A stretch of 64,000 nucleotides of DNA from an uncultured virus (IMG/VR IMGVR_UViG_3300034279_000829) (IMGVR_UViG_3300034279_000829); one strand, 5' to 3'. Positions 1-64,000 are shown, numbered from the stretch's first letter. Notes: generated by a model not told the origin, from the letters alone. Translations and numbers: made by a program.

Positions 1-361
1 ATGCGGCAAGTGCATCGGCTCGCTCCTCATCGGGCATGGTGCCCCAGACACAGACGGCTGGGATTCCGTAGTTCCTGGTCAGGTACTCAGTCGCACCCTT
101 GGCTGCGAACACACTGCCCGTGAACAGGACGGTCTGTCCCATCATCTCCTCGGCGGTGATCATGCAGGCGCGGTGCAGATTGGCTTCCTTGTTCAGTTCC
201 GCGGCGAGCTTCGTCTGGTTGAAGTCGCCGCCGACAATGTTGACCTTGCTTAGATCCAGCGACTCCACCCGGCTCAGCTTGCAAACAGGCGGCACTGCCC
301 AGCCGTTGGCGATGGCCCACTGGAGGTCGTAGTTACAGACTGACTCTTGATAGAACTGCAT
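1..361 (-). CDS. SF2 helicase C-terminal (RecA2) subunit, copy A, truncated by window edge
   Basis: Reads MQFYQESVCNYDLQWAIANGWAVPPVCKL..., matching 59878..60936. Preceded by TAAGGAG. Confidence 0.85.
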   Translation of the reverse strand, partial: MQFYQESVCNYDLQWAIANGWAVPPVCKLSRVESLDLSKVNIVGGDFNQTKLAAELNKEANLHRACMITAEEMMGQTVLFTGSVFAAKGATEYLTRNYGIPAVCVWGTMPDEERADALAA

Positions 362-864
362 GCGTCACTCCTTAGCATGGGCTTGCCGTCCATCCGAAAC
401 GGCGTGGCCGTGAATCCTGCGACCATCGCGCCTTGGTCTTGAAAGAACTTCAACATCTCAATTACCGGCTCGCTGCACTGCATGTGCGCCTCGTCCACAA
501 TGACGAGAGAGAACCCATTGAATCTGCGGTATCGCTTCTCGCCTTGGCGGCTGGACAGCAGCGTCTGCTTCGATGCGACCACCACCTTTGCCGGCCAGTA
601 GTCGCGCTCGGCAACGTAATCGGCCATCTCTATGTCGGGGTCAGAGTCTGTGACCTGACGAACCTTGTCAGCTGCCTGCCAGACAAGCTCACGCATCGGG
701 GCGATGATCAGCGTGCGTCCTTCGATGCGATCCGCGAGTGCAGTGAAGATCACGGTTTTGCCGGCGCCGGTGAAAAGCCCAACGAGCGTGGACTTCACAC
801 CGCGGCGCATTGCGTCCAGCAGCGATTCGATCACTTCCGTTTGGTAGTCGCGCAGTCTGAGCAT
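274..864 (-). CDS. SF2 DExH helicase N-terminal (RecA1) subunit, copy A
   Basis: LRDYQ Q-motif, TGAGKT Walker A, DEAH, TAT motif III. Start taken at MLRLRDYQ. Confidence 0.9.
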   Translation of the reverse strand: MLRLRDYQTEVIESLLDAMRRGVKSTLVGLFTGAGKTVIFTALADRIEGRTLIIAPMRELVWQAADKVRQVTDSDPDIEMADYVAERDYWPAKVVVASKQTLLSSRQGEKRYRRFNGFSLVIVDEAHMQCSEPVIEMLKFFQDQGAMVAGFTATPFRMDGKPMLRSDACSSIKSQSVTTTSSGPSPTAGQCRLFAS

Positions 865-888
865 GAAAACATCCTTGTTTTGAAGAAG

Positions 889-931
889 CCCGGGGGAGGG
901 CCGGTCGGAGGGTCCGGCCCTCAACCCCGGG
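889..931 (-). terminator. Long GC-rich hairpin between SSB and helicase (terminator/attenuator-like)
   Basis: CCCGGGG-GAGGGCCGG...CCGGCCCTC-AA-CCCCGGG, followed by a pyrimidine run on the minus strand. Nearly identical at 61465-61506. Confidence 0.55.
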
Positions 932-955
932 CGGCGCGTGTAACCGCGCCAGCAA

Positions 956-1315
956 TCAACGGAACTCAGCGAACTCTTCTTCCTCCGCCTGCGCCTCCTG
1001 CCGCTTGCCGCCAAGCAGCTGGACACGCTGAACCTGAAGGACAACCTTCGACCGCTTCTGGCCGTCTTTCTCCCAGTGCTGCTGCTCAAGCTCACCTTCC
1101 ACCAGCACCGTGGTGCCGCGGGTGAGGTAGCTCAGCACATTGCCGACACGCCAGTGGTCGCAGTCCAGGAACATCACATCCTGACTGCCGTCCTTCCGCT
1201 TGCGGCCGTTGATGGCGACCGCATACCGGGCAACTTCCGACTCGCCAACCATGCGAGACTCAGCGTCTCGGGTGAGGTTGCCAACACCGATGAACTTGTT
1301 AAACGAACTAGCCAT
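956..1315 (-). CDS. ssb: Single-stranded DNA-binding protein
   Basis: GNLTRD, GTTVLVEGEL, WEKDGQKRSK, acidic C-tail ending EEEFAEFR. Confidence 0.92.
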   Translation of the reverse strand: MASSFNKFIGVGNLTRDAESRMVGESEVARYAVAINGRKRKDGSQDVMFLDCDHWRVGNVLSYLTRGTTVLVEGELEQQHWEKDGQKRSKVVLQVQRVQLLGGKRQEAQAEEEEFAEFR

Positions 1316-1955
1316 GAGCAACGGCCTCCTTCTGCCAGTGGCGGACGAATTCCGCCTTGCACCTATCGAACACGCTGCGGTCGATGGCCTTCTCGCGAAG
1401 ACGCAACTCAACCTCAGACATCACCTTCCTCGCCGCAGCCTCGTCGGCCGCTTCAGCGATCTTGGTCTTCCATCCCTGCTCTCGCTGCAGCCCTGCAGCG
1501 GAGTTCGCCGGTGCCGGCCGACTGGTGGCCTGCACGCGGTTGTCCTCGCCATCGTCATCGGGTTCCCCACTGAACCCGCCAGTCAGGCTCATCAGCAGAG
1601 TTCGCTTGGCGTAAGTCACCGCCGATCCGAACCCCTGCATGTCACCCTTGCCGTTCACCAGCGGGGCAATGCCCGTGATGTACTGACCACTGGAGTGACG
1701 CAACGTGCCGACCAGCACCCACTGACTGCCGACCAACCCTGGCCGGAAGTCCGGCAAGGCAAGGCCGTTCTTTGTCAGCGGGCCACGCAACGAATCGCAG
1801 CAAGTCGCATAAGACGAGAACCGGCTTTTGAAATGCGGGTTCGCGGCGTCCAACTCAACGTGCTTATACTCAGCCTGTGCCTTTGCCAGCGCCTTGGTTA
1901 GCTCGCTGGTGTCGGGCGACGATGACGGTCCCAAGATGTTGTTGTTGTCAGTCAT
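1308..1955 (-). CDS. ERF-family ssDNA annealing protein
   Basis: ALAKAQ...NPHFKSRF, QGFGSAVTYAKR, GEPDDDG. Confidence 0.9.
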   Translation of the reverse strand: MTDNNNILGPSSSPDTSELTKALAKAQAEYKHVELDAANPHFKSRFSSYATCCDSLRGPLTKNGLALPDFRPGLVGSQWVLVGTLRHSSGQYITGIAPLVNGKGDMQGFGSAVTYAKRTLLMSLTGGFSGEPDDDGEDNRVQATSRPAPANSAAGLQREQGWKTKIAEAADEAAARKVMSEVELRLREKAIDRSVFDRCKAEFVRHWQKEAVAHG

Positions 1956-2806
1956 ACTGTGATTACCTCCTCCTCCTTCTTGTTCGCCCAATTCGGGAAC
2001 TGGAGTTCCGTGATCTCGCCCGCATCTGCGGACTCATAGACCCCCGTCTCCCGCCTCAGACGAACCTCCTCCATCACGCGGGTCATACGCAGGCCCGCCT
2101 CCTCAACGATCTCTGTCGGCAGATAGAAGACCCGGCATCCAAACGGAGCCATGGTCTGACAAAAGATGAACGGCATGCGGAAGTGATCCATGCCGAGAGC
2201 CATAGCCCCTTGGACATAGAGCCACTCCTGCTCCGCATAGCCGAAATCAATCGCGCTGCGGAACACCTTGTCCCAAGTGGACGAGGTGGACTTCATGTCC
2301 CACCACAGGCTCGGGGTGCAGCCGTCCGGTCGGACCTTGCACAGATGCCCCATCAGCTGGAAGAACACGGACACTTGCGTCTCGGTGGTCTGCTCAATCA
2401 GCTTTCTGGCCGCAGCGTTGGCCATGAGGTGATCCAGCATCATCTCAAACTGCCAGCCCTCTTCAGCGTTGCAGTCGATCAACCCCTTGCGCTCCGCCTG
2501 CTCTTTCCAGGCGTCGTACTTGGCGCCCCTCCGGTGGCCGTTGCTGGCCAGCACATCGGCGGGAGGGATGGCGAGAACGTCAGTCAACTTTTTCCCCTCG
2601 CACACCGCCGTGACGATGGTGTCCCACTTGCTGCCGGTGCGGGTTCCGGCGTTCCCCCCGAAGAGGGAGTAACCAAGATCCAGCCACTGCTGTGCTTCGC
2701 CGCCGTACTTGGCAACCGAGTGCAGGTAGCTGCGACCGAGAGCGTCGGTCTGCGAGTGGTAGTCCGTGTTGGACATGCCAATGATTTTCCGTGGCAAACT
2801 AGTCAT
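1952..2806 (-). CDS. PD-(D/E)XK exonuclease VIII (RecE-like)
   Basis: SNTDYH N-terminus, CKVRPD...WWDMKS, FGYAEQEWLY; next to ERF and SSB. Confidence 0.85.
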   Translation of the reverse strand: MTSLPRKIIGMSNTDYHSQTDALGRSYLHSVAKYGGEAQQWLDLGYSLFGGNAGTRTGSKWDTIVTAVCEGKKLTDVLAIPPADVLASNGHRRGAKYDAWKEQAERKGLIDCNAEEGWQFEMMLDHLMANAAARKLIEQTTETQVSVFFQLMGHLCKVRPDGCTPSLWWDMKSTSSTWDKVFRSAIDFGYAEQEWLYVQGAMALGMDHFRMPFIFCQTMAPFGCRVFYLPTEIVEEAGLRMTRVMEEVRLRRETGVYESADAGEITELQFPNWANKKEEEVITV

Positions 2807-2817
2807 CCGTACACCTC

Positions 2818-3051
2818 CTAGTAAGAAGCCGCCTCCGTGCGGCGAACAGACTCCCTCCGAAGACCGCGGCGGAACAGAACCGCCGCTCGGCCCAACTGTC
2901 CGAGAGCGAGAAGGGTGAGCAGAGTGCCCACACCGTGCAGAAAAATGACGACCACTAGCAAAGCCAGGACCGCCCCCCTTAGAATTCGGGAGAGCCACCC
3001 ACTTGGGGGGCCGCTTCGACCGACTCTATCCAATTGAGCTAGGGGTGCCAT
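2818..3051 (-). CDS. Small membrane protein whose 5' end is a tRNA-like sequence
   Basis: MAPLAQLDRVGRSGPPSGWLSRIL then a long hydrophobic stretch. Conservative substitutions relative to copy B (63401..63637). Confidence 0.6.
   Translation of the reverse strand: MAPLAQLDRVGRSGPPSGWLSRILRGAVLALLVVVIFLHGVGTLLTLLALGQLGRAAVLFRRGLRRESVRRTEAASY
3024..3048 (-). other. tRNA(Arg)-like 5' half (acceptor strand + D-arm); candidate att core
   Basis: GCACCCC-TA-GCTC-AATTGGATA-GAG next to a tyrosine recombinase. 26 bp identical at 63612-63637. Confidence 0.65.
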
Positions 3052-3061
3052 ATGCGAGCCG

Positions 3062-3089
3062 AGTATAGCAGGGGACTTGCGGGATCCAA
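3062..3089 (-). promoter_or_regulatory. sigma70-like promoter
   Basis: TTGGAT-N16-TATACT with a TG extension. Both boxes are conserved in copy B while the spacer varies. Confidence 0.5.
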
Positions 3090-3144
3090 AAGTGGGGGTA
3101 GTCTCACCCCCCTCAACCAGATCCACAAACTTTCCGAAAACAAC

Positions 3145-3960
3145 ATGACTCTCAGAGAGTTCGCGGAGGCTTACGCCCTCCAATCGGGGGCTAGCCCCGG
3201 CTACCGGGAGCAACTCATTGTGCTGACCAAGCGGCTCCCTTGGGGGGTGGCCGACTTGACCGTCAGCAACATTGATGCGTACCTCACGCATGCCCTTGGT
3301 CATCTCGCCGCCTCCACGGTGAACAACCATCGCCGGATGCTTAGCACCCTGCGACGAGCCGCCCTCCGAGACGGCCTTGTGGTGGACGATTGTACACGGC
3401 CGATCCGCCGTGTCAAGCACACCTTGCCGATGGTCCGCGCTTGGACCCATGACGAGATGCGGCACCTGCTTTCGGTAGCCGCGGAGATGCCGGGAAACAC
3501 CCTTCACTGCCCGCTGAAAGTTCTGCTGCCGGCGTGGATTCTGGTCGGCTACTCCAGCGGCTTGCGTCTGGGCGACATGCTGGCCATCACCCATGACTCC
3601 CTGAGAGGAGATAGGCTGGCTCTGATTCTGCGCAAGACCCGGCAACCGCATGTGATCGTCCTTGATCAGCAGGCCCTAGAAGCAATCCGTTCGCTTCCCC
3701 GGCGAGGGCCGAAAATCTTCGGCGGACTCGTCGGAAGGAGCCGGATCATAGTGGCCATGCGCGCGCTCGTCAAACGAGCCGGCCTCACCGGATCGGGCAA
3801 ATACCTGCGTAGAGCGAGTGCGACTTACGCCCAAATGGCTGGGATCGACCCCAGTGGACACTTAGGTCACCTGACCCCGGGCATGAAGCGGCACTACCTA
3901 GATCCGGTCATTCTCTCGGATCTGAAGAGGGCCGTGCCTAGCCTGGCAGGAATGCGCTAG
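3145..3960 (+). CDS. Tyrosine recombinase/integrase
   Basis: SGLR, RKT, KYLR (K in the H position of HxxR), LGH, RHY catalytic pattern. Confidence 0.85.
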   Translation: MTLREFAEAYALQSGASPGYREQLIVLTKRLPWGVADLTVSNIDAYLTHALGHLAASTVNNHRRMLSTLRRAALRDGLVVDDCTRPIRRVKHTLPMVRAWTHDEMRHLLSVAAEMPGNTLHCPLKVLLPAWILVGYSSGLRLGDMLAITHDSLRGDRLALILRKTRQPHVIVLDQQALEAIRSLPRRGPKIFGGLVGRSRIIVAMRALVKRAGLTGSGKYLRRASATYAQMAGIDPSGHLGHLTPGMKRHYLDPVILSDLKRAVPSLAGMR

Positions 3961-40504: not shown

Positions 40505-41263
40505 TCAGTCCACCTTAGCCCGCCATGTCGTACGGTTGGCTAGCTCTGCCACCGTCCATGGGCTGGCCGTCACCGGCTTCCGGCTTGGGACAAACCGGCC
40601 CCGTTCATCACGGCCCAGCATAGCCCAGCCCGCCAGACCTTCCGGCACGGCTGCCGTCCGGCTCTTGCCAATCTGACGGTTCGGCACGGTTCCCTTATAG
40701 GACACTCCGTAAATCTTGGCTTCCTCCCAACGGATGGCCGTATGGGTTTCATATCGACCCTCTACCACCAGCCACCGTTCGATTCTGTTACGGCCCCGGA
40801 TGGCTTTCCTGCGGGCCTTCCTTTGACGGTCTGAAACGTATCGCAGTCCCTTCCCGGCCTCTTCTTTGGCTATAAGAATCGCCAGTGGGGTAGGGGTCTG
40901 AGAGTCTTCGCTTGTGCCGGTTGACGGAGTTGCATCCCAGCCCTCCGCCTGCCGCTGCTTGGCTAGCTTGGCTTCGAACCGCCGCAGGGCCTGTTCGTCT
41001 GCCGTGTTGCCATGCCAGCCCCGGAGCCGCCAACGGCGGCCATGGGACGCCGCCGCGTGCTGATGGCTTTCGGGCGTCCATTCGGAATAATCGGCCGTCT
41101 GCCAGTCGTAGATAATTCTCGCCGCAACTTCCTCCCGGGCTTCCGGGGAGAGCGGGGAATGACAGTCCGGTTGAGAGTGTTTGGCGACATACCGTCGAAT
41201 GAAAAGCATCGCTTGGCGGGCTTCGATGTTAGAGATGGTAAGGGGGTTGTAGGTCATGGTCAT
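40505..41263 (-). CDS. Hypothetical protein, possibly sigma-like
   Basis: GGAGG RBS and own promoter motif; weak similarity by eye to sigma region 2 and linker. Confidence 0.6.
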   Translation of the reverse strand: MTMTYNPLTISNIEARQAMLFIRRYVAKHSQPDCHSPLSPEAREEVAARIIYDWQTADYSEWTPESHQHAAASHGRRWRLRGWHGNTADEQALRRFEAKLAKQRQAEGWDATPSTGTSEDSQTPTPLAILIAKEEAGKGLRYVSDRQRKARRKAIRGRNRIERWLVVEGRYETHTAIRWEEAKIYGVSYKGTVPNRQIGKSRTAAVPEGLAGWAMLGRDERGRFVPSRKPVTASPWTVAELANRTTWRAKVD

Positions 41264-41275
41264 GTCCTCCGTTAT

Positions 41276-41301
41276 TACTATTCACTGGGCCGGAACAATT
41301 C
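41276..41301 (-). promoter_or_regulatory. Promoter-like motif GAATTGTTCC-N6-GTGAATAGTA
   Basis: One of four near-identical intergenic copies. Confidence 0.7.
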
Positions 41302-41369
41302 CGGCCGCGCGTTCATATTTCTATCGGCTATCTATAGCCTAGTCAAGAAAAATCTTTTGCCGTTCCCAA

Positions 41370-41394
41370 GATTTGTTCCGGGCTTGTGAATAGT
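41370..41394 (+). promoter_or_regulatory. Promoter-like motif GATTTGTTCC-N6-GTGAATAGTA
   Basis: Divergent partner of the copy at 41276. Confidence 0.7.
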
Positions 41395-41541
41395 AATAGC
41401 GTCAACGAAAAACACTCCCCAACGGAGTGAATACGACGCAAACGCAGTGCGGGCTTCATGCCCGTTGCTGTGTGCGACCAGCGTTCGGGGCATGGTTGCT
41501 CTGAATACTGCGGGCAGTGAACATTCCGAAAAATCTTTCGG

Positions 41542-41567
41542 GATTTGTTCCTGACCAGTGAATAGTG
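41542..41567 (+). promoter_or_regulatory. Promoter-like motif GATTTGTTCC-N6-GTGAATAGTG
   Basis: Directly upstream of the structured non-coding region. Confidence 0.7.
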
Positions 41568-41594
41568 CATACGTTCACTCAACGGCCCTTCCGA

Positions 41595-42040
41595 CATGGG
41601 CAGTAGACGTATGACTACTGCGCATGCGGGCAGCACAAGGATGTGACTATGGCCTGGCAATACAACATGTGGACGGTGATTATTGCGGCCAGTATGGCTC
41701 TGCAGTTTGCGGCCAGCTGGAACGCTTGGTGACGGGATTCGATCCCGGGCAGGATGTGGCACCAGTAGTCTGCTGGAGCGTGGTGCCGCAGTAGTCCAGC
41801 CCTGCCCGGGTTCGGTTGCCGTTTGACGGGAACTGAATAGCCCCATATGGGCTGACTGTGCTGCCAATTCATTGCCGCTAGTGGCGATGAAGGCGCGGCT
41901 GCGTGGATTACGGACGGCGAGGGCCTTGGTCATGCCTATCAGCGGCGTGGAAGGCTAACCCTCAACAACGCCCCCGGATAGTTCGGCCCGGGGGTCCATG
42001 CAGCAAACGCACAGCATATGGGGCTATTCGGTTGCCGTTT
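41595..42040 (+). ncRNA. Candidate large structured RNA
   Basis: Many nested helices; most imperfect pairs are G-U on the + strand. Confidence 0.55.
41649..41732 (+). CDS. 27-aa hydrophobic peptide
   Basis: MAWQYNMWTVIIAASMALQFAASWNAW with AAGGA upstream. Confidence 0.4.
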   Translation: MAWQYNMWTVIIAASMALQFAASWNAW

Positions 42041-42072
42041 CTGGTAGCCGGCTTCTTTTCATGGAGGTGCAT

Positions 42073-42813
42073 ATGGCTCTACGCTATGCACCGGCCAACG
42101 CTAAGCTCTCCAATCTGGAGAAGCGGTTGGGCGTCAAGGTCTACTCCTTTGACATGCTGTCAGGGGTGACCTGCCCGTTTGCAAACGACTGCCATTCCAA
42201 AGTGGTTGTCGTTGACGGCAAGCGGACAATCGTTGACGGTCCCAACACGTTGTTCCGGTGTTTCTCCGCCTCGCAAGAGGTGGCGTATACGAACGTGTTT
42301 CTGGCCCGTCAGGCCAACACCGATGCGATCCTGCCGATTGCGGCTGATTCGGTGCTGGGGGCAGCCGATGCCCTGGCGGATGCCCTGCCGGACGATGCGG
42401 GCTGTGTCCGCATCCATGTGGCTGGGGATTTCAAGCTCCTCAACTACTTCGATGCATGGCTGGAGTTGGCGTATCGCAGGCCGGATGTCCGGTTCTACGC
42501 ATACACCAAGAGCCTGCCATTCTGGATCAAGCGTCGGGCGATCCTGCCTGACAACTTCCTGCTGACTGCGAGCAGGGGTGGCAAGGCGGACCATCTCATC
42601 GATGAGCATGGCCTGCGGGAAGCCCGCGTGGTGTTCTCTGAGCAGGAGGCAGATGACTTGGGACTGGAGATCGACCATGACGATAGTCATGCCGCTCTCC
42701 CCGGCCCGTCATTCGCCCTGCTGATCCATGGGGTTCAGCCCAAGGGATCAGAGGCCGGCAAGGCCGTGCGTGCCTTGCGGGGTGTGGGTTCTTACTCAAG
42801 GCAGAAGGTGTGA
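42073..42813 (+). CDS. Phage gp88-like (radical-SAM-related) protein
   Basis: GVTCPFA..C, CFSAS, RIHVAGDF, FYAYTKS. Confidence 0.75.
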   Translation: MALRYAPANAKLSNLEKRLGVKVYSFDMLSGVTCPFANDCHSKVVVVDGKRTIVDGPNTLFRCFSASQEVAYTNVFLARQANTDAILPIAADSVLGAADALADALPDDAGCVRIHVAGDFKLLNYFDAWLELAYRRPDVRFYAYTKSLPFWIKRRAILPDNFLLTASRGGKADHLIDEHGLREARVVFSEQEADDLGLEIDHDDSHAALPGPSFALLIHGVQPKGSEAGKAVRALRGVGSYSRQKV

Positions 42814-43961: not shown

Positions 43962-44744
43962 ATGTGTCTAGCGGTTTACAAGCCTTCCACGGTACTCCCA
44001 GACTGGGATGCCTTGGAGGAGGGGTTCAAGTGCAACTCCCACGGAGCAGGCTTTGCCGTGGCGACTGCCGGGTCCATCCAGGTTCACAAGGGATTCTTCA
44101 CGTTCGATGAGTTTGCCCGGGCGTATGAGCCGTTTGCCGACAAGCAGGCGCTCATCCACTTCCGACTGGCAACGCATGGCAATCGCGGGCCGGACATGTG
44201 CCACCCGTTCATGGTGACAGACGAAATCGCCATGATCCACAACGGCATCCTGCCCATCGATACCTCTGATGACAAGGACAAGTCGGACACATGGCACTAC
44301 GTGGAGTACATCCTCAAGCCATTGGCCGAGCGTGATCGGGACTTCTATTCCGACAACGCAATCAAGTTCCTTGGTGAAGCTGCGATCAGCGGGTCCAAGT
44401 TTGCCTTCCTGCGTGCAGATGGCGACTGGACTATCTGGAACAGCGAGGACGGCCACTGGAGTGGCGACATCTGGTACTCCAACCGGAGCTACGTCAAAAG
44501 CCACATCGGTTTCTCGCGGTGGCCGAAAGCGGAAACGCCGCCGGTGATCGATGTCCCCGCGTTCGATGACCCGGGGGAGAGTCGGTACTACGACTCGCTC
44601 TGCAAGTCCGACCAGTGGGAGTACGAGGATCTGCTGGAGGATGGGTTCTCTGCCGAGGAACTGGATGAGTACATCGCGATGGATGGTCGCTCAGCGCTGA
44701 AGTATCTGAAACGGATGCACAAGTACGACGAGGAGAACGTATGA
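43962..44744 (+). CDS. Class II (Ntn) glutamine amidotransferase
   Basis: N-terminal MC, N.HGAG, HFRLATHG, CHPF, HNG, SDT. Confidence 0.9.
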   Translation: MCLAVYKPSTVLPDWDALEEGFKCNSHGAGFAVATAGSIQVHKGFFTFDEFARAYEPFADKQALIHFRLATHGNRGPDMCHPFMVTDEIAMIHNGILPIDTSDDKDKSDTWHYVEYILKPLAERDRDFYSDNAIKFLGEAAISGSKFAFLRADGDWTIWNSEDGHWSGDIWYSNRSYVKSHIGFSRWPKAETPPVIDVPAFDDPGESRYYDSLCKSDQWEYEDLLEDGFSAEELDEYIAMDGRSALKYLKRMHKYDEENV

Positions 44745-45913
44745 CCACAACAAATACCGAGGCGGGAGTCCTTTGCGAGGACGGGGAAACCCGTCCTCTT
44801 TCTGTTTGTAGGCAGGATGTCGATGGGCGGTGGTGGGACGAGGATGACTGCGTTGAGGTGGACGGCAGCTACTACCGCACCTCCGACTCTCGCGTCTGCT
44901 ATGTGGAGTCGCGAGACGAGTGGCACCTGACCGACGATTGCCTCCTCGTTCGCGGCTCTTGGGAGCATGAGAATGACGCTAGCTACTGCCCCATCTGCAG
45001 TCGCGGGACGCTGGACGATGACCTGGTTAGCGATCCCAACGGGGATAGCATCTGCGAGCGGTGCTACGACAATCACTGCACAAGCTGCTGCAACTGCGGC
45101 GATGTTCAGTGGGATGACGATTGCAACCTGGACGAGGACGGGTATTGCCCCGAGTGTTCAGACGCGCCGCCGCGTTCTCTTGTCTCTAGCTACAGCGACA
45201 AGTCTGCCAACCGACTGCGTTCCGAAACCAAGGACAAGCTGCGGTTCGGGATTGAGTTGGAGGTGGAGGGGTATGAGTCCACCACGCAGGCCGCCGAGTA
45301 CATCCGGCAGTTCCTGCCCGATACCTACTGCACCCTCAAGCGGGACGGCAGTCTGGGTGATTCGGGCGTGGAGATTGTGACTCGTCCGGACAGCATGGCC
45401 GTTCACAAGCGGATGTTCGGCACGCTGTTCAAAGATTCTCCGGGGCGTGCGTTGTCTAGCTGGAACACGGGGCGCTGCGGCATGCACGTTCACATCTCCC
45501 GGGCTGCGCTCTCGCAGTTGCAGATCGGCAAGATGATGTGCTTCCTCAATGAGCCTGCGGCAGTGAACTTCATCAGCAAAGTCGCAGGCCGCAAGCCGTG
45601 CAACTGGTGCAAGGTACACAAGAAAAAGATCGGTGACTTCAAGCGGGACCATGATCGGTACACCGCACTGAATACCACCGGCTCACACACCGTGGAGGTG
45701 CGCATCTTCAAGGGGACACTGGCGGAGGCCGGGTTCATGAAGAACCTGGAGTTTGTTCAGGCACTGGTGGAGTTCACCGCTCCTGCCAATCGGTCAATCG
45801 CACAGGCTACCTCGCACCGTGCCTTCTGCGAGTGGCTCCCCAAGAAAGCCTACCCCCACCTGCATGCGTTCCTGGTTTCCAAGGGTTTTATTCGTCGCCG
45901 CAATGCGGCCTAA
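44741..45913 (+). CDS. Phage amidoligase (COOH-NH2 ligase) with N-terminal Cys-rich repeats
   Basis: FGIELEVE, KRDGSL, EIVT, CGMHVH, RYTALN, TVEVRIF. Confidence 0.9.
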   Translation: MTTTNTEAGVLCEDGETRPLSVCRQDVDGRWWDEDDCVEVDGSYYRTSDSRVCYVESRDEWHLTDDCLLVRGSWEHENDASYCPICSRGTLDDDLVSDPNGDSICERCYDNHCTSCCNCGDVQWDDDCNLDEDGYCPECSDAPPRSLVSSYSDKSANRLRSETKDKLRFGIELEVEGYESTTQAAEYIRQFLPDTYCTLKRDGSLGDSGVEIVTRPDSMAVHKRMFGTLFKDSPGRALSSWNTGRCGMHVHISRAALSQLQIGKMMCFLNEPAAVNFISKVAGRKPCNWCKVHKKKIGDFKRDHDRYTALNTTGSHTVEVRIFKGTLAEAGFMKNLEFVQALVEFTAPANRSIAQATSHRAFCEWLPKKAYPHLHAFLVSKGFIRRRNAA

Positions 45914-49579: not shown

Positions 49580-49678
49580 GGAGGTGACTGATGTTTGCAA
49601 TGAGTGAGACGATGGACTTTCTGTTGGGCGGCGCCAGTGTGCTGCTCATTCTGTGGTGGTCCTCCTTGGAGTAGTGCC

Positions 49679-50452
49679 ATGTTGTATGGATATGCCCGAG
49701 TCTCTACGGACAAGCAGGAGAACTCAGCCGAAGCGCAGGCCGCCCGGCTTATGGCGTACGCCCAGCAGTCGGGCCTGGAGTTTGGCGAGTTGTTCGTTGA
49801 CGAGGATCAGTCGGCCAGCAAGATCCCGTTCCAGCACCGCAAGCGGGGGCGTGTGTTGTGGGACAGGCTCCAGCCCGGGGATGTCGTAGCCTTCACCAAG
49901 ATCGACCGCGTGTTCCGGTCAATGGCAGATGCGGCCACCACCCTGGCGACATGGAAGTCGCTAGGTGTGGGGGTCCGCTTCTTGGACATGGGTATCGATG
50001 TCAACACGCCGGCCGGCGAACTGTTCTTCAACCAGCTAGCTGCGTTCGCCCAGTACGAAAGCCAGATGATCGGCCAGCGGGTGCGGGAGATCGGCGCTCA
50101 CCTGCGTGAGGCAGGGCGCCCGGTCGGTACGCTGCGCCCGTTCGGCTGGGTCAGCGACGGCGAGAAGTTCGTACCGTGCAAGGCCGAGCGTGAGATCGGC
50201 CAGCTGGTGGTGGCCATGCGTGAGGCAGGCCGCTCGTTCTCAGCCATCGCCCTGCATCTCTGCAAGAAGGAGATGCGCAAGCCGCCCAACAAGAAGGGTG
50301 TGCGCGGGTACTACGGCCTGACCGATGTCACCTATCTGCACCGAGCGGCGCTAGCTGGATTCCCAAGGCTTGCGCCAAGGCTTTCGCGAGAGCAGTGGAC
50401 CGCCGGGCTGCAGCGCGCAGAGAAATCTCATGCGACTCAGCCAGCGCTCTGA
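49679..50452 (+). CDS. Serine recombinase
   Basis: YGYARVST..Q, KIDRVFRS, TPAGELF, AQYE; PFGW...SF..IA..L C-terminal domain. Confidence 0.9.
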   Translation: MLYGYARVSTDKQENSAEAQAARLMAYAQQSGLEFGELFVDEDQSASKIPFQHRKRGRVLWDRLQPGDVVAFTKIDRVFRSMADAATTLATWKSLGVGVRFLDMGIDVNTPAGELFFNQLAAFAQYESQMIGQRVREIGAHLREAGRPVGTLRPFGWVSDGEKFVPCKAEREIGQLVVAMREAGRSFSAIALHLCKKEMRKPPNKKGVRGYYGLTDVTYLHRAALAGFPRLAPRLSREQWTAGLQRAEKSHATQPAL

Positions 50453-59877: not shown

Positions 59878-60936
59878 TCATCGACTAACAAATCGGTCTT
59901 CTCGTCCATGTCTCCTCCCCAGTTCCTTCCTGAACATAGCCTTGATCCAGCCGTTCAGTTTCTCGTTGTAAGCCGCCCAGTGAACGTAGTGGTCAGGCAG
60001 TTCGCTCAGCTTGTAGCCGGCGAACTTTCCCTTCAGCGGGTTGTTGTAAGTGCCGACTGAGCGCGTGCCCTTCCAAGTGATGTCAACATCCTTACCGTGG
60101 ATGCGACCTTCGCCACGGCCCTGCGTGTTGCGGCGCATCTCTTCGATGAGCTTGGCGCTGGCGATCTTCTCCGCCTTCTTCGCCGCCTCCTCGGCCGCGA
60201 GCGCGTCTATCTCCGCCTGCGTGAGTGGATGCTGCTCCGCCGCCTTGCGGACTTTCTCTTTGACTTCCTCGTCCTGCGCGGTGCAGAACATGTCCACGCT
60301 AGTGACAACCGTGTGATCAAGCGTTCCTGCTGTGCAGTCCACAATCTTGAAGTGAGGCTTTCCAGATCGGGCGATTGCAGCAATGCGGGATGCAGCCGTA
60401 CTCCCCTCAAAGTCAACAACACCGGGGAGGGGGCGAGTGGCTCGGCCGACACACTGAAGCCAGAAACTTCTGGAGCGGGTGGGCCTTGCGAGGATGAGGG
60501 TTGCGGTCGGTGGATAATCGAAGCCCACGGCAACCACTTGGCAGTTGACCAGAACGCGGGCCTGCTTGGATTTGAACGCAGCCAGTGCATCATTCCTCTC
60601 CTCGTCGGGCATGGTGCCCCACACACAGACAGCAGGGATTCCGTAGTTGCGGTTGAGGTATTCGGTCGCGCCCTTGGCGGCGAACACACTGGCGGTAAAG
60701 AGGACGGTCTGCCCCTCCATCTCCTCGGCGGTGATCATGCAGGCGCGGTGCAGATTCGCCTCCTTGTTCAACTCCGCCTGGAGCTTCGCTTGGTGGAAGT
60801 CGCCGCCCACAATGTTCACCTTTGAGAGGTCCAGAGACTCAACCTTGCTCAGCTTGCAGAGAGGCGGAACGGACCATCCGTGTGCGATTGCCCACTGCAG
60901 GTCGTAGTTGCAGACTGACTGTTCGTAGAATTGCAT
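59878..60936 (-). CDS. SF2 helicase C-terminal (RecA2) subunit, copy B
   Basis: TVLFT, VLVNC.V...GFD.P, LARPTRS, QCVGRATR. Confidence 0.9.
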   Translation of the reverse strand: MQFYEQSVCNYDLQWAIAHGWSVPPLCKLSKVESLDLSKVNIVGGDFHQAKLQAELNKEANLHRACMITAEEMEGQTVLFTASVFAAKGATEYLNRNYGIPAVCVWGTMPDEERNDALAAFKSKQARVLVNCQVVAVGFDYPPTATLILARPTRSRSFWLQCVGRATRPLPGVVDFEGSTAASRIAAIARSGKPHFKIVDCTAGTLDHTVVTSVDMFCTAQDEEVKEKVRKAAEQHPLTQAEIDALAAEEAAKKAEKIASAKLIEEMRRNTQGRGEGRIHGKDVDITWKGTRSVGTYNNPLKGKFAGYKLSELPDHYVHWAAYNEKLNGWIKAMFRKELGRRHGREDRFVSR

Positions 60937-61439
60937 GCTTCACTCCTAAGCATTGGCTTGCCGTCCATCCGAAACGGCGTTGCCGTGAAACCCACCACCA
61001 TCGCCCCTTGTTCCTGAAAGAACTTCAGCATCTCAATGACCGGCTCGCTGCACTGCAGATGCGCCTCGTCAACGATCACCAGCTGAAAGCCGTCGAACCT
61101 GCGGTAACGCTTCTCACCACGCCGGCTGGAGAGCAGCGTCTGCTTCGATGCGACGATCACCTTGGCGGGCCAGTAGTCGCGCTCGGCAACGAAGTCGGCC
61201 ATCTCAATGTCGGGATCGGTGTCGGTCGCCTGCCGCACCTTGTCCGCGGCCTGCCAGACAAGCTCACGCATCGGAGCGATGATCAGCGTCCTGCCTTCGA
61301 TGCGGTCGGCCAGCGTGGAGAAGATGACCGTCTTGCCGGCGCCGGTGAACAATCCCACCAGCGCAGACTTCACGCCGCGGCGCATCGCATCCAGCAGGCT
61401 TTCGATCACTTCCGTTTGGTAGTCGCGCAGTCTGAGCAT
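60849..61439 (-). CDS. SF2 DExH helicase N-terminal subunit, copy B
   Basis: LRDYQ, TGAGKT, DEAH, TAT. Confidence 0.9.
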   Translation of the reverse strand: MLRLRDYQTEVIESLLDAMRRGVKSALVGLFTGAGKTVIFSTLADRIEGRTLIIAPMRELVWQAADKVRQATDTDPDIEMADFVAERDYWPAKVIVASKQTLLSSRRGEKRYRRFDGFQLVIVDEAHLQCSEPVIEMLKFFQEQGAMVVGFTATPFRMDGKPMLRSEACNSTNSQSATTTCSGQSHTDGPFRLSAS

Positions 61440-61548
61440 GGAACACATCCTTGTGTAAGAAAGACCCGGGGGAGGGCCGGTCGGAGGTCCGGCCCTCAAC
61501 CCCGGGCAAGGCGCGCGTGTTAACCCGGGACACCGCGCGCCTGGAGGA

Positions 61549-61893
61549 TCAACGGAACTCCGAAGCGAACTCTTCCTCGTCGGCCGTCTCGCGCTTACCG
61601 CCCAGCAGGCGGATGTCGCTGACGTTCAGGATGACCTTGGATCGCTTCTGGCCATCCTTCTCCCAGACCTGCTGGTCCAGTTCGCCTTCGACCAGCACCG
61701 GCGTGCCACGCTGGAGGTACTCCACCACCGCGCCGCCCCGCCAGTATTCGCAGTCCATGAACAGAACCTTGCCCTTCTTAAAGGGCGAGTTCACCGCGAT
61801 GGAGAACTTCGCAACGTCACGCTCACCAGCCTGGCGAACCTCAACGTCGTTGGTCAGGTTGCCGATCAGAATCGAACGGTTGTAACTAGCCAT
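61549..61893 (-). CDS. ssb: Single-stranded DNA-binding protein, copy B
   Basis: GNLT.D, GTPVLVEGEL, acidic tail. Confidence 0.92.
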   Translation of the reverse strand: MASYNRSILIGNLTNDVEVRQAGERDVAKFSIAVNSPFKKGKVLFMDCEYWRGGAVVEYLQRGTPVLVEGELDQQVWEKDGQKRSKVILNVSDIRLLGGKRETADEEEFASEFR

Positions 61894-62545
61894 TTGCAAC
61901 TACCTCCTTGGTGTCCCACTTCTTGGAAAACTCCGCCTTGCAGCGGTCAAACACATCACGCCCAATCGCCTTCTCGCGGAGTCGCAACTCAACGAGCTTC
62001 ATCACCGTCACGGCCTCTGCCCGGTCGGCGGCATTGGCGATGTCCTTCTTCCAGCCCTGCTCAAGCTGCAGGTTCTGGACTGCCTTGGTCGGCTCGGGCC
62101 GGCTGGCCGGGCGATCCGGCACGCGGTTGTCCTCGCCATCGTCATCCGGCTCGCCACTGAAGCCGCCGCACAGCGCCATCAGCAGCGTCCGCTTGGCATA
62201 AGTGCAGGCGCTGCCGAACGACTGCATGTCGCCCTTCGTCATCAGCAACGGAGCGATGCCCGTGATGAACTCGCCGCTCTTGTGGCGAAGGGTGCCGACC
62301 ATGACCCACTGGCCATTCGCCAGCAGGCCGGGCCGAAAGTCCGGCAGGCTGATGCCGTTCTTGGTCAGCGGTCCACGCAGCGAATCGCAGCATGTCGCAT
62401 ATGACGAGAACCTGCTTTTGAAGTGCGGGTTCGCGGCATCCAATGCAACGTGCTGGTACGCGGCTTGGGCAGCTGCGAGGGCCGCAGTCAGCTGGCCCGT
62501 GCTGGGGGACGATGACGGCCCCAAGATGCTGTTGTTGTCTGTCAT
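61886..62545 (-). CDS. ERF-family annealing protein, copy B
   Basis: NPHFKSRF, GSACTYAKR, DDDG. Confidence 0.9.
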   Translation of the reverse strand: MTDNNSILGPSSSPSTGQLTAALAAAQAAYQHVALDAANPHFKSRFSSYATCCDSLRGPLTKNGISLPDFRPGLLANGQWVMVGTLRHKSGEFITGIAPLLMTKGDMQSFGSACTYAKRTLLMALCGGFSGEPDDDGEDNRVPDRPASRPEPTKAVQNLQLEQGWKKDIANAADRAEAVTVMKLVELRLREKAIGRDVFDRCKAEFSKKWDTKEVVANG

Positions 62546-63396
62546 ACGATCACCACCTCCTCCTCCTGGCGCTTCGCCCAGGCGGGGAACTGAAGCTCCG
62601 TGATCTCTCCAGAGTCAGCGGACTCATAGACCCCCGTCTCCCTGCGAAGACGAACCTCCTCCATCACGCGGGTCATTCGCAGACCCGCCTCCTCCACAAT
62701 CTCGGTCGGCAGATAGAACACATGGACACCGTACGGGGCCATGGTCTGGACAAAGACGAACGGCATCCGGAAGTGATCCATGCCCAGAGCCTTGGCGCCC
62801 TGCACATAGAGCCACTCCTGCTCCGCGTATCCGAAGTCAATCGCGCTGCGGTAGACCTTGTCCCACGTTGACGAGGTGGTCTTCAGATCCCACCACAGAG
62901 CCGGCGTGCAGCCGTCCGGTCGCACCTTGCAGCGGTGGCCGTTGAGTTCAAAGAACGCACTGACCTGCGTCTCGTTCGTCTGCTCAATCAGCGCCTTGGC
63001 CGCGGGGTTCTCAAGGAGATGGGTCAGCATCATCTCCAGCTGCCAGCCTTCCTCTTGGTTGCAATCGACCAGACCCTTGCGGTCGGCCTCTTCCTTCCAG
63101 GCGTCGTAGGCCTTGCCCCGGCGGGAGCCGTTGCTGGCCAGCACCTCGGCCGGCGGAATGGCCAGAACGTCAGTCAACTTTTTCCCCTCGCAGACGGCAG
63201 TGACGATGGTGTCGAACTTGCTGCCAGTGCGAGTGCCGGCGTTCCCCCCAAACAGGGAGTAGCCCATGTCCATCCACCGCTGAGCTTCGCCGCCGTACTT
63301 GGCGACGGAGTGCAGGTACGACCTGCCAAGGAAATCATTCTGCGAGTGGTAGTCGGCATTGCTCATGCCGATCACCTTGCATGGGAGCCTGTCCAT
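62542..63396 (-). CDS. PD-(D/E)XK exonuclease VIII-like protein, copy B
   Basis: CKVRPD...WWDLKT. Confidence 0.85.
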   Translation of the reverse strand: MDRLPCKVIGMSNADYHSQNDFLGRSYLHSVAKYGGEAQRWMDMGYSLFGGNAGTRTGSKFDTIVTAVCEGKKLTDVLAIPPAEVLASNGSRRGKAYDAWKEEADRKGLVDCNQEEGWQLEMMLTHLLENPAAKALIEQTNETQVSAFFELNGHRCKVRPDGCTPALWWDLKTTSSTWDKVYRSAIDFGYAEQEWLYVQGAKALGMDHFRMPFVFVQTMAPYGVHVFYLPTEIVEEAGLRMTRVMEEVRLRRETGVYESADSGEITELQFPAWAKRQEEEVVIV

Positions 63397-63400
63397 CAGT

Positions 63401-63637
63401 TCACCTCCGTTGTGAAGAAGCCGCCTCCGTGCGGCGCACCGAATCCCTCCAACGCCGGAACGCAACAAGCGCCCGGCCAAACTGTCCAAGAGCGAGGAAC
63501 ACCATGGCCGTGGCCGTGGCGTGAAAGAAAAGCAGCAAGACCAGAATGGTCATCGCCGCTGCGCCTAGAATTCGGGAGAGCCACCCGCTCGGGGGGCCGC
63601 TTCGACCGATCCTATCCAATTGAGCTAGGGGTGCCAT
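63401..63637 (-). CDS. Small membrane protein with tRNA-like 5' end, copy B
   Basis: MAPLAQLDRIGRSGPPSGWLSRIL plus hydrophobic segment. Confidence 0.6.
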   Translation of the reverse strand: MAPLAQLDRIGRSGPPSGWLSRILGAAAMTILVLLLFFHATATAMVFLALGQFGRALVAFRRWRDSVRRTEAASSQRR

Positions 63638-63730
63638 GTGGTTCGCCAGTATAGCAGGGGCCTTGATAGATCCAAAAGTGGGGGTAGTCTCACCCCCCTC
63701 AACCAGATCCACAGATTTTCCGAAAACAAC

Positions 63731-64000
63731 ATGACTCTCAGAGAGTTCGCGGAGGCTTACGCCCTCCGGGTAGGGGCTAGCCCAGGCTACAGGGAGCAAC
63801 TCGTTGTGCTGGCCAAGCGCCTCCCTTGGGGGGTGGCAGACTTGACCGTCGATAGCATCGATGCTTACCTGACGCAGGCCCTCGGTCATCTTGCCGCCTC
63901 CACGGTTCATAACCATCGCCGGATGCTCAGCACCCTGCGAAAGGCCGCCCTCCAAGACGGCCTGTTGGTGGACGATTGTACACGGCCTATCCGGCGTGTC
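63731..64000 (+). CDS. Tyrosine recombinase, copy B (truncated by window edge)
   Basis: MTLREFAEAYAL..., homologous to 3145..3960. Confidence 0.85.
   Translation, partial: MTLREFAEAYALRVGASPGYREQLVVLAKRLPWGVADLTVDSIDAYLTQALGHLAASTVHNHRRMLSTLRKAALQDGLLVDDCTRPIRRV

What the first reader, a model, noticed from the sequence alone, without database searches (positions are those of the whole stretch)
41595..42040. Candidate large structured RNA driven by a phage promoter
Seen: right after the promoter motif at 41542 lies a ~450-nt stretch with no long plus-strand ORF and dense nested helices. They are 41595-606/41615-626; 41744-753/41801-810 enclosing 41755-764/41781-790; and a closing ~24-bp helix 41826-849/42015-038. 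That last helix encloses CTGTG/CACAG, 41868-876/41883-891, 41898-907/41995-42004, an inner GGCG-AGGG-CCTT-TCATGCC arm and CCCCCGG/CCGGGGG. Most imperfect pairs are G-U on the + strand, as expected for selection on a + strand RNA rather than a DNA palindrome. Inference: an ncRNA (decoy, 6S-like or scaffold) or a long regulatory leader of the early operon. I do not recognise the family.
Basis: partly seen in the sequence, partly recalled or inferred. Interest (0 to 1): 0.78.

Follow-up and report, generated by a model that had tools for sequence, protein, structure and literature searches.

The report
Modular hairpin leader of phage operon
This stretch is not a stand-alone RNA gene but the structured front part of a lake phage's messenger RNA (a tiny gene, two long hairpins and a small competing hairpin), an arrangement conserved in related phages that probably sets how much of the next gene is made.

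Summary
The + strand folds at z = -5.45, with 0 of 100 shuffles as good. No Rfam family matches. The 446 nt are not one RNA unit, though.

Comparison with 30+ variants from related uncultured phages shows a conserved modular mRNA leader, in this order:
- a promoter-like repeat;
- a 5' hairpin whose 3' strand is the invariant GCATGCGGGCAG;
- a Shine-Dalgarno (SD) site and a swappable first ORF (27 aa here; 7 unrelated families in relatives) whose stop codon overlaps strand "a";
- hairpin H1 (a1:b1, 41731-41823);
- an optional hairpin H2 (a2:b2, 41826-42038);
- strand "c", which pairs with the last "b" to form a small hairpin H3 (42028-42051), followed by a U-rich tract;
- the SD site and a GP88-family gene (42073).

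The lower stems are conserved, while the tops are hypervariable and exchanged like cassettes. Both a:b and b:c keep pairing through compensatory changes, yet they exclude each other. G-U pairs favour the + strand.

My best reading is a cis-acting three-strand switch that senses a ribosome at the first ORF's stop codon and decides whether the terminator-like H3 forms. The main rival is RNase III processing and stability hairpins.

A 6S-like or decoy ncRNA, a MITE, an inverton and an attC site were each tested and not supported. No expression data exist.

The parts
41277..41301 (-). Leftward copy of the 25-nt promoter-like repeat (GAATTGTTCC..GTGAATAGT)
   Evidence: 1 mismatch; I2, I3
41370..41394 (+). 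First rightward copy of the promoter-like repeat
   Evidence: (exact), D1
41542..41566 (+). Second rightward copy of the promoter-like repeat. Its role as a promoter or operator is inferred.
   Evidence: The sigma-70 scan found no consensus match. Relatives carry their own duplicated motif at the same place.
41595..41626 (+). 5' leader hairpin (CATGGGCAGTAG / CTACTGCGCATG). Its 3' strand runs into the invariant GCATGCGGGCAG (41622-41633).
   Evidence: the hairpin is present in relatives with different stem sequences. The invariant motif has 0-1 mismatches in 20 of 21 variants and is a single copy in the window.
41637..41641 (+). SD-like AAGGA, 7 nt before the ATG of the small ORF
41649..41732 (+). 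Small ORF of 27 aa (MAWQYNMWTVIIAASMALQFAASWNAW), or 29 aa from the GTG at 41643. Its TGA stop (41730-41732) overlaps the first two bases of strand a1. It occupies the swappable first-gene slot.
   Evidence: It has no homologue or family. Translation is not shown.
41731..41823 (+). Hairpin module H1. Strand a1 is 41731-41752 and strand b1 is 41802-41823. They form a 22-position stem with 3 conserved mismatches. The top, 41753-41801, is lineage-specific.
   Evidence: (I5). Other strains swap the top exactly at 41752|41802.
41826..42038 (+). Hairpin module H2. It has a ~24-bp stem (a2 from 41826; b2 = 42027-42038 plus the mid stem) and a 159-nt branched top unique to this lineage.
   Evidence: I1; z = -4.28, 0 of 100 shuffles; the top is not found elsewhere; compensatory changes against relatives.
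42028..42051 (+). Hairpin H3 (b2:c): TCGGTTGCC / GGTAGCCGG. It shares strand b2 with H2, so the two exclude each other.
42052..42061 (+). U-rich tract CTTCTTTTCA after H3. With H3 it is terminator-like.
   Evidence: 19 of 33 variants have >=5 T in the first 8 nt.
42063..42067 (+). SD site GGAGG of the GP88-family gene
42073..42813 (+). GP88-family gene (PF17338), the first conserved gene of the rightward operon
   Evidence: (E = 4.2e-33)

Best explanation
The region is the 5' part of a rightward phage mRNA, not an RNA gene.

The transcript starts after the repeat at 41542. It begins with a 5' hairpin, is translated through a small exchangeable first ORF, and then passes one or more long hairpin modules. 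Each module has a conserved lower stem a:b and a free top. After the last module, a short strand c can pair with the same b strand to form a small hairpin H3. H3 sits directly before a U-rich tract and the SD site of the GP88-family gene.

Proposed mechanism (inferred). Helices a:b and b:c exclude each other and have nearly equal energy. A ribosome that reaches the ORF's stop codon, which overlaps a1, keeps a1 single-stranded. Then b1 is free. Either it pairs with the adjacent a2, so that b2 is handed on to c, or b1 pairs with c directly. Either way the terminator-like helix with c forms and transcription is attenuated before the GP88-family gene. Without a ribosome on a1, the long hairpins close, c stays free and RNA polymerase reads through.

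Shown here: the anatomy, its conservation, the compensatory changes in both competing helices, the stop-codon overlap and the + strand bias. Not shown: the transcript itself, termination, and any effect of translation.

My confidence that this is a cis-acting modular mRNA leader is about 0.85. My confidence in the ribosome-sensing attenuator mechanism is about 0.4, which is the figure given in the confidence field.
For: Architecture. The layout is conserved in the clade whose GP88-family protein is >=64% identical. 37 of 70 sequences scanned carried an a-to-ATG segment, giving 21 unique variants. Metagenome and genome contigs added 10 more. The layout is absent from the more distant clade: there were no motif hits in L017-L046, and the 8 sources that gave no hit to the H3 model were 7 distant-clade loci plus L094.

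a1:b1. 84.8% of 441 cells pair, against 28-57% when the partner is slid. L009 and L076 repair the conserved mismatches by changes on either strand.

a2:b2. The ~24-position stem is kept through blocks of double changes. The window has ..CCCCATATGG.. where relatives have ..CCCCCTCTGG.., and L057 differs entirely.

b:c. H3 is predicted in 21 of 21 variants. With a covariance model it was found in 35 of 35 clade loci and once in the window. 88.1% of 294 cells pair, the covariation score is 0.192 against 0.130 for shuffles, 0 of 500 shuffles reach it, and slid controls give 10-56%.

Three-way compensation. A change in b is matched in both a and c in the L001/L002 group, the L009/L084 group and L076. 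The match is partial in L050 and the window.

Energetics. Blocking a1 or blocking c costs about the same. For the window the values are -177.8 and -176.8 kcal/mol against -178.1 when free.

Stop codon. A stop triplet overlaps a1 in 20 of 21 variants, although the ORFs fall into 7 unrelated families.

Terminator likeness. H3 plus CTTCTTTTCA is called terminator-like in the window. 19 of 33 variants have >=5 T in the 8 nt after H3.

Strand. G-U pairs number 145 of 1209 on + against 52 of 1116 on -, and the + strand is more stable in 20 of 21 variants.

Literature. Ribosomes at a stop codon repress hairpin-dependent termination a few bp downstream in E. coli (PMC4824070, abstract and outline read).
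Against: There are no expression data. No RNA run holds the sequence, so the transcript, its start and any termination are unproven.

14 of 33 variants lack a good U-run after H3.

The model gives no role to tops of 12-159 nt.

In L009 and L076 no stop codon overlaps a1 and the H1 stem is perfect. In L012 b1 abuts a2, and in L005 an insert of about 130 nt lies between b1 and a2. The b1:a2 relay cannot be universal.

In L084, H3 carries a large insert and would always win.

Predicted SD accessibility does not change consistently between the two states.

Covariation in the conserved stems is modest because they hardly vary: 2 pairs with double changes in each. The alignment used was fitted to the model, which biases it towards pairing.

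The host, and so its rules for terminators, is unknown.
Confidence: 0.4

Rival explanations
1. RNase III processing and mRNA-stability hairpins, as between the early genes of T7-type phages. H1 and H2 are double-stranded substrates cut by the host RNase III. The cut separates the first ORF's mRNA, which keeps a protective 3' hairpin ending just after its stop codon, from the GP88-family gene's mRNA. The new 5' end of that mRNA then folds into the b:c hairpin as a 5' stabiliser. This can coexist with the switch model.
For: The stems are about two helical turns long. H1 has 22 positions with 3 conserved mismatches. H2 has ~24 nearly perfect pairs.

The RNase III review gives 22 bp as the ideal substrate. 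[quoted passage not shown]

This model explains best why only the lower stems are conserved while the tops vary freely in length and sequence. It also explains why modules can be added in tandem.

The position between cistrons fits. The comparison with the T7 early sites R0.3-R1.3 is recalled, not checked here.
Against: No cleavage data exist. The host and its RNase III specificity are unknown.

The model does not need the stop codon to overlap a1 in 20 of 21 variants. It does not need the near-equal energies of a:b and b:c, or the U-rich tract after H3.

Strong sequence conservation of 22-nt stems goes beyond what E. coli RNase III is known to require.
Confidence: 0.3
2. A DNA-level element. 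The conserved a, b and leader sequences are mainly recombination 'linkers' (boundary sequences) that let co-infecting phages exchange the first gene and the hairpin tops. Alternatively the hairpins are single-stranded DNA sites for replication or site-specific recombination. On either view the RNA folding is a by-product.
For: The ORF family, the H1 top type and the presence of H2 are reassorted in nearly every combination.

Co-occurring strains in the same lakes replace the H1 top exactly at the stem boundary 41752|41802.

b1 and b2 form a 14-nt direct repeat that could add or delete H2.

The locus lies in a divergent control region, and the phage encodes tyrosine and serine recombinases and Erf.

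A strand bias in G-T pairs would also fit a folded + DNA strand.
Against: Linkers need no internal complementarity. Here a:b and b:c keep pairing through compensatory and three-way changes.

The element is tied to translation signals: the stop codon sits at a1 and the SD site lies 5-15 nt after H3.

There are no attC core sites in 41700-42080.

The tops never appear inverted: 0 of 77 related pairs.

The motif is single-copy per genome.
Confidence: 0.1
3. A stand-alone structured ncRNA. The ~450 nt, or H2 alone, would be released and act in trans as a decoy, a 6S-like RNA or a scaffold.
For: The predicted structure is strong: z = -5.45 for the whole stretch and z = -4.28 for the H2 insert. The window's H2 top is a large branched fold. 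There is no Rfam match, so it would be new.
Against: The stretch contains an ORF slot with an SD site.

The tops, which would carry the specific function, are unrelated between close relatives.

H2 is absent in 11 of 21 variants.

The window's H2 top was found in no other viral contig: 0 hits for a 21-mer.

Only the stem bases are conserved, which is the opposite of what a trans-acting RNA with a conserved core would show.
Confidence: 0.05
4. A mobile or switchable DNA element: a MITE-like insertion (H2 flanked by the 14-nt direct repeat and inverted ends) or an invertible promoter segment flipped by the phage's serine recombinase.
For: H2 has 39-nt imperfect inverted ends and lies between two copies of TTCGGTTGCCGTTT. 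It is present or absent among relatives. A DNA-invertase-like gene lies at 49604-50452.
Against: The a-motif occurs once per viral contig in all 23 hits, and the b motif occurs only at these two places in the window.

The 'direct repeat' is simply the shared b strand of two homologous modules.

No inverted copy was seen among 77 related top pairs.

H1 tops of 12-18 nt are too short to invert.

Only skipping joints were seen in the four metagenome runs, which were contigs only, and none changed strand.
Confidence: 0.03

Closest known systems
Ribosome-mediated transcription attenuators (trp, his, pheL leaders)
   Same: One RNA strand (b) can pair with an upstream strand (a, the antiterminator) or a downstream strand (c) to form a hairpin followed by a U-rich tract, just ahead of the regulated gene. 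An upstream ORF ends where a ribosome would cover the antiterminator strand.
   Different: The upstream ORF is not a dedicated leader peptide with regulatory codons. It is a swappable gene of 27-164 aa from 7 unrelated families. The antiterminator is the base of a long hairpin with a free top. Modules occur in tandem, so the signal would have to be relayed. The U-tract is weak in 14 of 33 variants. None of this has been tested experimentally.
RNase III processing signals between early genes of phage T7 and its relatives (recalled; general RNase III rules from PMC3867540)
   Same: Long imperfect hairpins lie between cistrons of a phage operon. They share a conserved lower stem with internal mismatches. 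Several paralogous copies occur per transcript.
   Different: There is no sequence similarity and no cleavage evidence. Here the 3' strand of the stem also forms a conserved alternative hairpin, and the stop codon of the upstream gene is built into the stem.
Translation-dependent opening of long-range RNA pairing in RNA phage MS2 (coat gene / replicase start; recalled)
   Same: A ribosome translating an upstream gene remodels a downstream structure that controls the next gene.
   Different: MS2 controls translation initiation by unmasking a start site. Here predicted SD accessibility does not change, and the competing hairpin looks like a terminator.
Boundary or 'linker' sequences of mosaic temperate phages (recalled)
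   Same: Short conserved sequences flank exchangeable gene modules, and the neighbouring parts are reassorted among relatives.
   Different: These conserved sequences are mutually complementary and keep their pairing through compensatory change, which linkers do not need.
Candidate structured RNAs of IMG/VR phages (PMC10690425)
   Same: It has the same kind of origin: a conserved structure upstream of a phage gene in uncultured viral contigs.
   Different: No candidate upstream of a GP88 (PF17338) gene is listed in the supplementary table of candidates within 25 bp of genes. Supplementary files 1, 2 and 4 could not be searched and may bear on this.

Membership tests
Any Rfam family (including 6S RNA) | Match to the family covariance model at its gathering score | tested here: not met
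   There were 0 hits in the whole window. The best sub-threshold hit in 41250-42150 was Chloroflexi-1 at 20.1 bits against a gathering score of 80. In 20 related loci there were only 2 tRNAs, located elsewhere.
6S-like / trans-acting ncRNA | One conserved RNA unit whose core (central bubble and flanking helices) is kept among relatives | tested here: not met
   The stretch splits into an ORF slot plus separate modules. The tops are unrelated in close relatives and H2 is absent in 11 of 21 variants.
Leader-ORF transcription attenuator | Two mutually exclusive helices sharing one strand, both maintained in evolution | tested here: met
   a:b is shown. b:c is shown. Three-way compensations appear.
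Leader-ORF transcription attenuator | Terminator: a G+C-rich hairpin directly followed by a U-run | tested here: inconclusive
   The window's H3 plus CTTCTTTTCA passes the simple scan. 19 of 33 variants have >=5 T in the 8 nt after H3 and 14 do not.
Leader-ORF transcription attenuator | Upstream ORF positioned so that the ribosome covers the antiterminator strand | tested here: met
   A stop codon overlaps the first bases of a1 in 20 of 21 variants (19 TGA and 1 TAA whose ORF is doubtful). L009 is the exception.
Leader-ORF transcription attenuator | Dedicated short leader peptide with regulatory codons | tested here: not met
   The ORFs belong to 7 unrelated families of 27-164 aa.
Leader-ORF transcription attenuator | Conditional termination shown on RNA | not testable with these tools
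   No RNA run is listed.
RNase III processing signal | Helix of about two turns (~22 bp), often with an internal loop or mismatch at the target site | tested here: met
   H1 has 22 positions with 3 conserved mismatches. H2 has ~24 pairs. The criterion comes from PMC3867540.
RNase III processing signal | Specific cleavage by RNase III | not testable with these tools
   This needs enzyme assays or RNA-end mapping.
MITE / small transposable element | Many dispersed copies with target-site duplications | tested here: not met
   There is one a-motif per viral contig in 23 of 23 hits. The b motif occurs only at the two module ends in the window. The window's H2 top has 0 hits in viral contigs. Of the 3 genome-contig hits, 1 is a phage-like contig and 2 are chance matches in coding sequence.
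Invertible DNA switch (inverton) | Segment between inverted repeats found in both orientations | tested here: not met
   77 related top pairs share orientation and 0 are opposite. No strand-changing joints were seen in 4 runs, which were contigs only.
Integron attC site | Core sites RYYYAAC and GTTRRRY at the ends of the imperfect palindrome | tested here: not met
   Neither pattern occurs in 41700-42080.
Riboswitch | Conserved ligand-binding core | tested here: not met
   Only the stem bases are conserved and the interiors are hypervariable. There is no Rfam hit.

The most novel reading that the evidence does not exclude
A modular 'domino' attenuator. Tandem hairpin modules share the same lower-stem strands (a1, b1, a2, b2, c). 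Because of this, ribosome occupancy at the stop codon of an exchangeable first gene is passed on by register-shifting of pairings (b1:a2, then b2:c) over up to ~350 nt. The end point is a terminator hairpin in front of the next gene. The conserved joints also let phages swap the first gene and the hairpin tops without breaking the switch. This would be a new design principle for coupling a hypervariable early gene, possibly for counter-defence, to the rest of an operon.
Probability: 0.2. Interest if true: 0.75.

Novelty: new variant of a known kind. Interest (0 to 1): 0.5.

Why it matters
If the three-strand switch is real, it gives a compact, testable example of how a phage couples expression of a conserved operon to translation of a freely exchangeable first gene. 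It would also show how RNA structure can be built from plug-in modules.

It also marks a hypervariable first-gene slot, with 7 unrelated small proteins of no known family. In other phages that position often holds host-takeover or anti-defence genes.

If instead the hairpins are only RNase III or stability elements, the finding is an ordinary, though previously uncatalogued, leader motif of an uncultured lake phage clade.

Tried and rejected
- Rfam at gathering and at E <= 10 gave nothing usable. ARAGORN found no tRNA or tmRNA.
- blastn of the region against cultured phages found no match. The portal protein also had no match there. The GP88-family protein matched only at <60% identity, to Synechococcus and other phages. 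The clade therefore has no cultured relative in that collection.
- RNA evidence: no RNA holder is listed. All 24 runs are lake-water DNA metagenomes. The four runs laid were contigs only.
- Translational switch: predicted SD accessibility with a1 blocked against free shows no consistent direction over 21 variants.
- The 196-aa minus-strand ORF 41343-41933 and the other overlapping ORFs have no Pfam or PHROG hit and are not conserved in relatives. I treat them as spurious.
- The 27-aa peptide has no tblastn match in phages at E <= 1 and no family. The other first-ORF families have no Pfam hit and only one weak PHROG of unknown function.
- The GP88-family protein has no PDB relative at E <= 1.
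- MITE, inverton and attC readings were tested and rejected.
- Host: one 55-kb contig with the full architecture is binned in a Pirellulaceae MAG. That is too weak to name a host.
- Earlier notes of this scan: nothing on this genome or on look-alikes.
- Literature: three full-text searches turned up no description of this element. I make no claim of absence beyond those searches.

Full report
**What is in the sequence.**
The window comes from a virus record of about 60% G+C. It carries phage structural, recombination and replication genes.

The finding lies in a divergent control region. A 25-nt motif (GATTTGTTCC-N6-GTGAATAGT) occurs at 41277-41301 on the minus strand and at 41370 and 41542 on the plus strand, 3 matches against 0 expected. 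A weaker copy lies at 43464. The first conserved rightward gene starts at 42073 and belongs to Pfam GP88, E = 4.2e-33.

That fold is -220.1 kcal/mol, z = -5.45, with 0 of 100 shuffles as good. The reverse complement folds just as far from its own shuffles, z = -5.42. Folding energy therefore shows an unusual inverted-repeat content but does not pick a strand.

No Rfam family matches the window at gathering score. None matches 41250-42150 at E <= 10 in a meaningful way; the best is 20.1 bits against a threshold of 80. No tRNA or tmRNA is predicted.

**Relatives.**
The GP88-family protein retrieved 46 viral loci and 80 metagenome loci, out of 317 confirmed relatives. A 22-nt motif from the finding retrieved 23 viral stretches, one per stretch, and 3 genome contigs.

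Two loci whose GP88-family protein is 96-98% identical share only the last ~75 nt of the region with the window. So most of the 446 nt is not conserved as sequence.

What is conserved is an architecture. I scanned 70 sequences for strand "a" (<=6 mismatches) followed within 600 nt by the gene's start. 37 qualified, giving 21 distinct variants. L003 and L015, whose strand a is deleted or diverged, and all distant-clade loci dropped out at this step. L003 and L015 were added back for the H3 analysis.

The distant clade (<=62% identity) has ordinary TTGACA/TATAAT-like promoters directly before the gene and none of these elements.

**The architecture, in window coordinates.**

(1) A 5' hairpin at 41595-41626. 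Its stem differs between relatives but always forms, and its 3' strand is the invariant GCATGCGGGCAG. That motif occurs once in the window.

(2) An SD site and a first ORF. In the window this is 27 codons, 41649-41732. In relatives the slot holds 56-164-aa proteins. Together they fall into 7 BLASTP-unrelated families among 20 variants, with no Pfam family. In 20 of 21 variants a stop triplet overlaps the first bases of strand a1 (..TGACGGGA..). Of these, 19 are TGA and 1 is TAA with a doubtful ORF. L009 is the exception. Among the later variants a stop triplet sits there in 7 of 9 by inspection; I did not check their reading frames.

(3) Module H1, 41731-41823. Strands a1 and b1 form a 22-position stem with three conserved mismatches (G.G, U.Y, U.U). 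The top ranges from 12 to 68 nt.

(4) An optional module H2, 41826-42038. Its lower stem uses the same b sequence and an a-like partner. It has a further conserved mid stem and a top that is 159 nt in the window. H2 is present in 10 of the 21 variants. One contig has three modules.

(5) Strand c. It pairs with the last b strand to form hairpin H3 (42028-42051). A pyrimidine-rich spacer of 5-15 nt follows, then the SD site.

**Is the structure selected, and on which strand?**

H1 stem. 84.8% of 441 cells pair, against 28-57% when partners are slid by 1-3 columns. Only 2 pairs show double changes, because the stem hardly varies. The frequent one-sided changes are all U.G<->C-G or G-C->G.U, which keep pairing only on the + strand. 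L009 and L076 turn the conserved mismatches into Watson-Crick pairs by changes on either side.

H2 stem. It holds through blocks of compensating changes. The window has CCCCATATGG/..CATATGGGG where relatives have CCCCCTCTGG/..CAGAGGGKG, and L057 differs entirely yet is fully paired.

H3. It is predicted in 21 of 21 variants. A covariance model found it in 35 of 43 sources searched. Those 35 were every clade member, with one hit in the window. It found none in 7 distant-clade loci or in L094. On the model-fitted alignment 88.1% of 294 cells pair, the covariation score is 0.192 against 0.130, 0 of 500 shuffles reach it, and slid controls give 10-56%. That alignment leans towards the model. Even so, a few rows (L001, L002, L073, L074, L009) remain in another register and count as unpaired.

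Hypervariable tops. All 20 distinct H1 tops have negative z-scores, -0.08 to -2.75. H2 inserts reach -5.25, and the window's is -4.28.

Strand bias. There are 145 G-U pairs among 1209 on + against 52 among 1116 on -, and the + strand is more stable in 20 of 21 variants. For 15 non-redundant tops the counts are 34 of 309 against 17 of 285, and + is more stable in 11 of 15.

This supports a folded + strand, which is also the coding strand. It would fit single-stranded + DNA as well.

**The key point: two competing helices.**
Strand b pairs either with a (the base of the long hairpin) or with c (H3), and it cannot do both.

Changes in b are matched in both partners:
- L001/L002 group: b is TTCCGGTGCC, with altered a1 and c.
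- L009/L084: b is TTCAGG/TTCGGGTGCC, with c CGGTGCCTG and a2 altered in L009.
- L076: b is GGCTATCG, with c GATAGTC and an a2 change.
- L050 and the window: partial matches.

Because c and a differ from each other at several positions, this is not simple copying between repeats.

Constrained folding makes the two states nearly equal in energy. For the window they are -177.8 kcal/mol with a1 blocked, -176.8 with c blocked and -178.1 when free.

**How it most likely works.**
I favour a cis-acting switch on the nascent mRNA. A ribosome terminating at the first ORF's stop codon covers a1. Then b is free for c, either directly or by the relay b1:a2 then b2:c. H3, with its U-rich tail, forms just before the GP88-family gene.

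H3 plus CTTCTTTTCA is flagged terminator-like in the window. 19 of 33 variants have >=5 T in the first 8 nt after H3. Ribosomes near a stop codon are known to suppress hairpin-dependent termination a few bp downstream (PMC4824070, abstract). That is the same physical effect this model uses on the antiterminator strand.

**Weak points.**
- 14 of 33 variants lack a good U-run.
- L009 and L076 lack the stop overlap.
- L012 and L005 cannot form b1:a2.
- L084 has an enlarged H3.
- Predicted SD accessibility does not differ between the two states.
- No RNA data exist.

**Main rival.**
The hairpins may be RNase III processing and stability signals, like those between T7 early genes (recalled). The stems are about two helical turns long and carry internal mismatches, which fits the published substrate rules (PMC3867540, passages). 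This reading explains best why only the stem bases are conserved while the tops drift and are swapped. After a cut, b:c would form a 5' hairpin on the downstream mRNA. The two readings can both be true.

**Rejected readings.**
- A single 6S-like or decoy RNA: the tops are not conserved, H2 is optional and an ORF lies inside the stretch.
- A MITE: one copy per genome.
- An inverton: 0 of 77 related tops are inverted.
- An attC site: no core sites.
- A riboswitch: no conserved core.

**Mosaicism.**
ORF family, H1 top type and H2 presence are reassorted freely. In four lake metagenome runs, co-occurring strains replace the window's H1 top exactly at 41752|41802 with a 16-nt top. This was seen in 1 contig each in X13 and X19. 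The conserved joints therefore also act as recombination boundaries.

**Novelty.**
The element matches nothing in Rfam. It has no cultured relative in the phage collection. It was not found in three literature searches. It is not in the searchable supplementary table of the IMG/VR structured-RNA survey (PMC10690425; files 1, 2 and 4 were not searched).

It is best filed as a new variant of a known kind, a cis-regulatory structured mRNA leader. The unusual features are its modular tandem hairpins with shared strands and its built-in stop codon.

Noticed in passing
window 23-3414 and 60598-64000: The two ends of the window align at 79.4% identity over about 3.4 kb, covering helicase and exonuclease genes. 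The window therefore spans two related but non-identical copies. Possible causes are a tandem or concatemer-like assembly of two related phage genomes, or a real duplication.
   Followed up: partly
window 41395-41541: The 147 nt between the two rightward promoter-like repeats is itself strongly structured (MFE -59.4 kcal/mol). It holds a minus-strand terminator-like hairpin at 41413-41429 followed by TTTTT. Relatives carry short tandem repeats (iteron-like) at the equivalent place.
   Followed up: partly
window 41523-41566, and relatives L005, L008, L013, L014 upstream of the leader: The 5' half of the promoter-like repeat is an A/T-rich inverted repeat (AAAAATC..GATTTKT). It is conserved across relatives with a variable spacer. 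The 3' half (-10-like) is specific to each phage but duplicated within it, which looks like a promoter plus a phage-specific operator (immunity-region style).
   Followed up: no
L001, L005, L008, L050, L054, L055, L063, L084, L086, L015 (H1 tops): One H1 top type (..GCGGC-N-CGGGCGNNNGCCC-ANNTAAGTCCGAATGC..) is conserved across many otherwise reassorted variants. It contains GTCCGAAT, identical to part of strand a2, so it could offer b yet another partner. It is absent from the window.
   Followed up: no
L084:1198-1303: In this variant the loop of H3 carries an extra inserted hairpin of about 60 nt. The loops of all three hairpin types therefore accept palindromic insertions.
   Followed up: partly
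L070 (55-kb contig binned in a Pirellulaceae MAG): This contig has the full architecture with three modules. It is the only, and weak, hint of a host. The middle module contains a GGGTTCGATCCCC stretch that resembles a tRNA T-arm.
   Followed up: no
window 43962-45913: The rightward operon continues with a glutamine-amidotransferase-like gene (weak Pfam hit; PHROG 4.9e-17) and an amidoligase-family gene (PHROG 2.1e-23).
   Followed up: no
window 3052-3960 and 49604-50452: A tyrosine integrase-like gene and a serine recombinase / DNA-invertase-like gene are present, together with Erf-like and exonuclease VIII-like genes. This suggests a temperate or recombination-proficient phage.
   Followed up: no
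L031:2715-2786, L020:6638-6709: Distant-clade relatives carry tRNA genes near their GP88-family gene and have canonical TTGACA/TATAAT-like promoters directly upstream of it.
   Followed up: no
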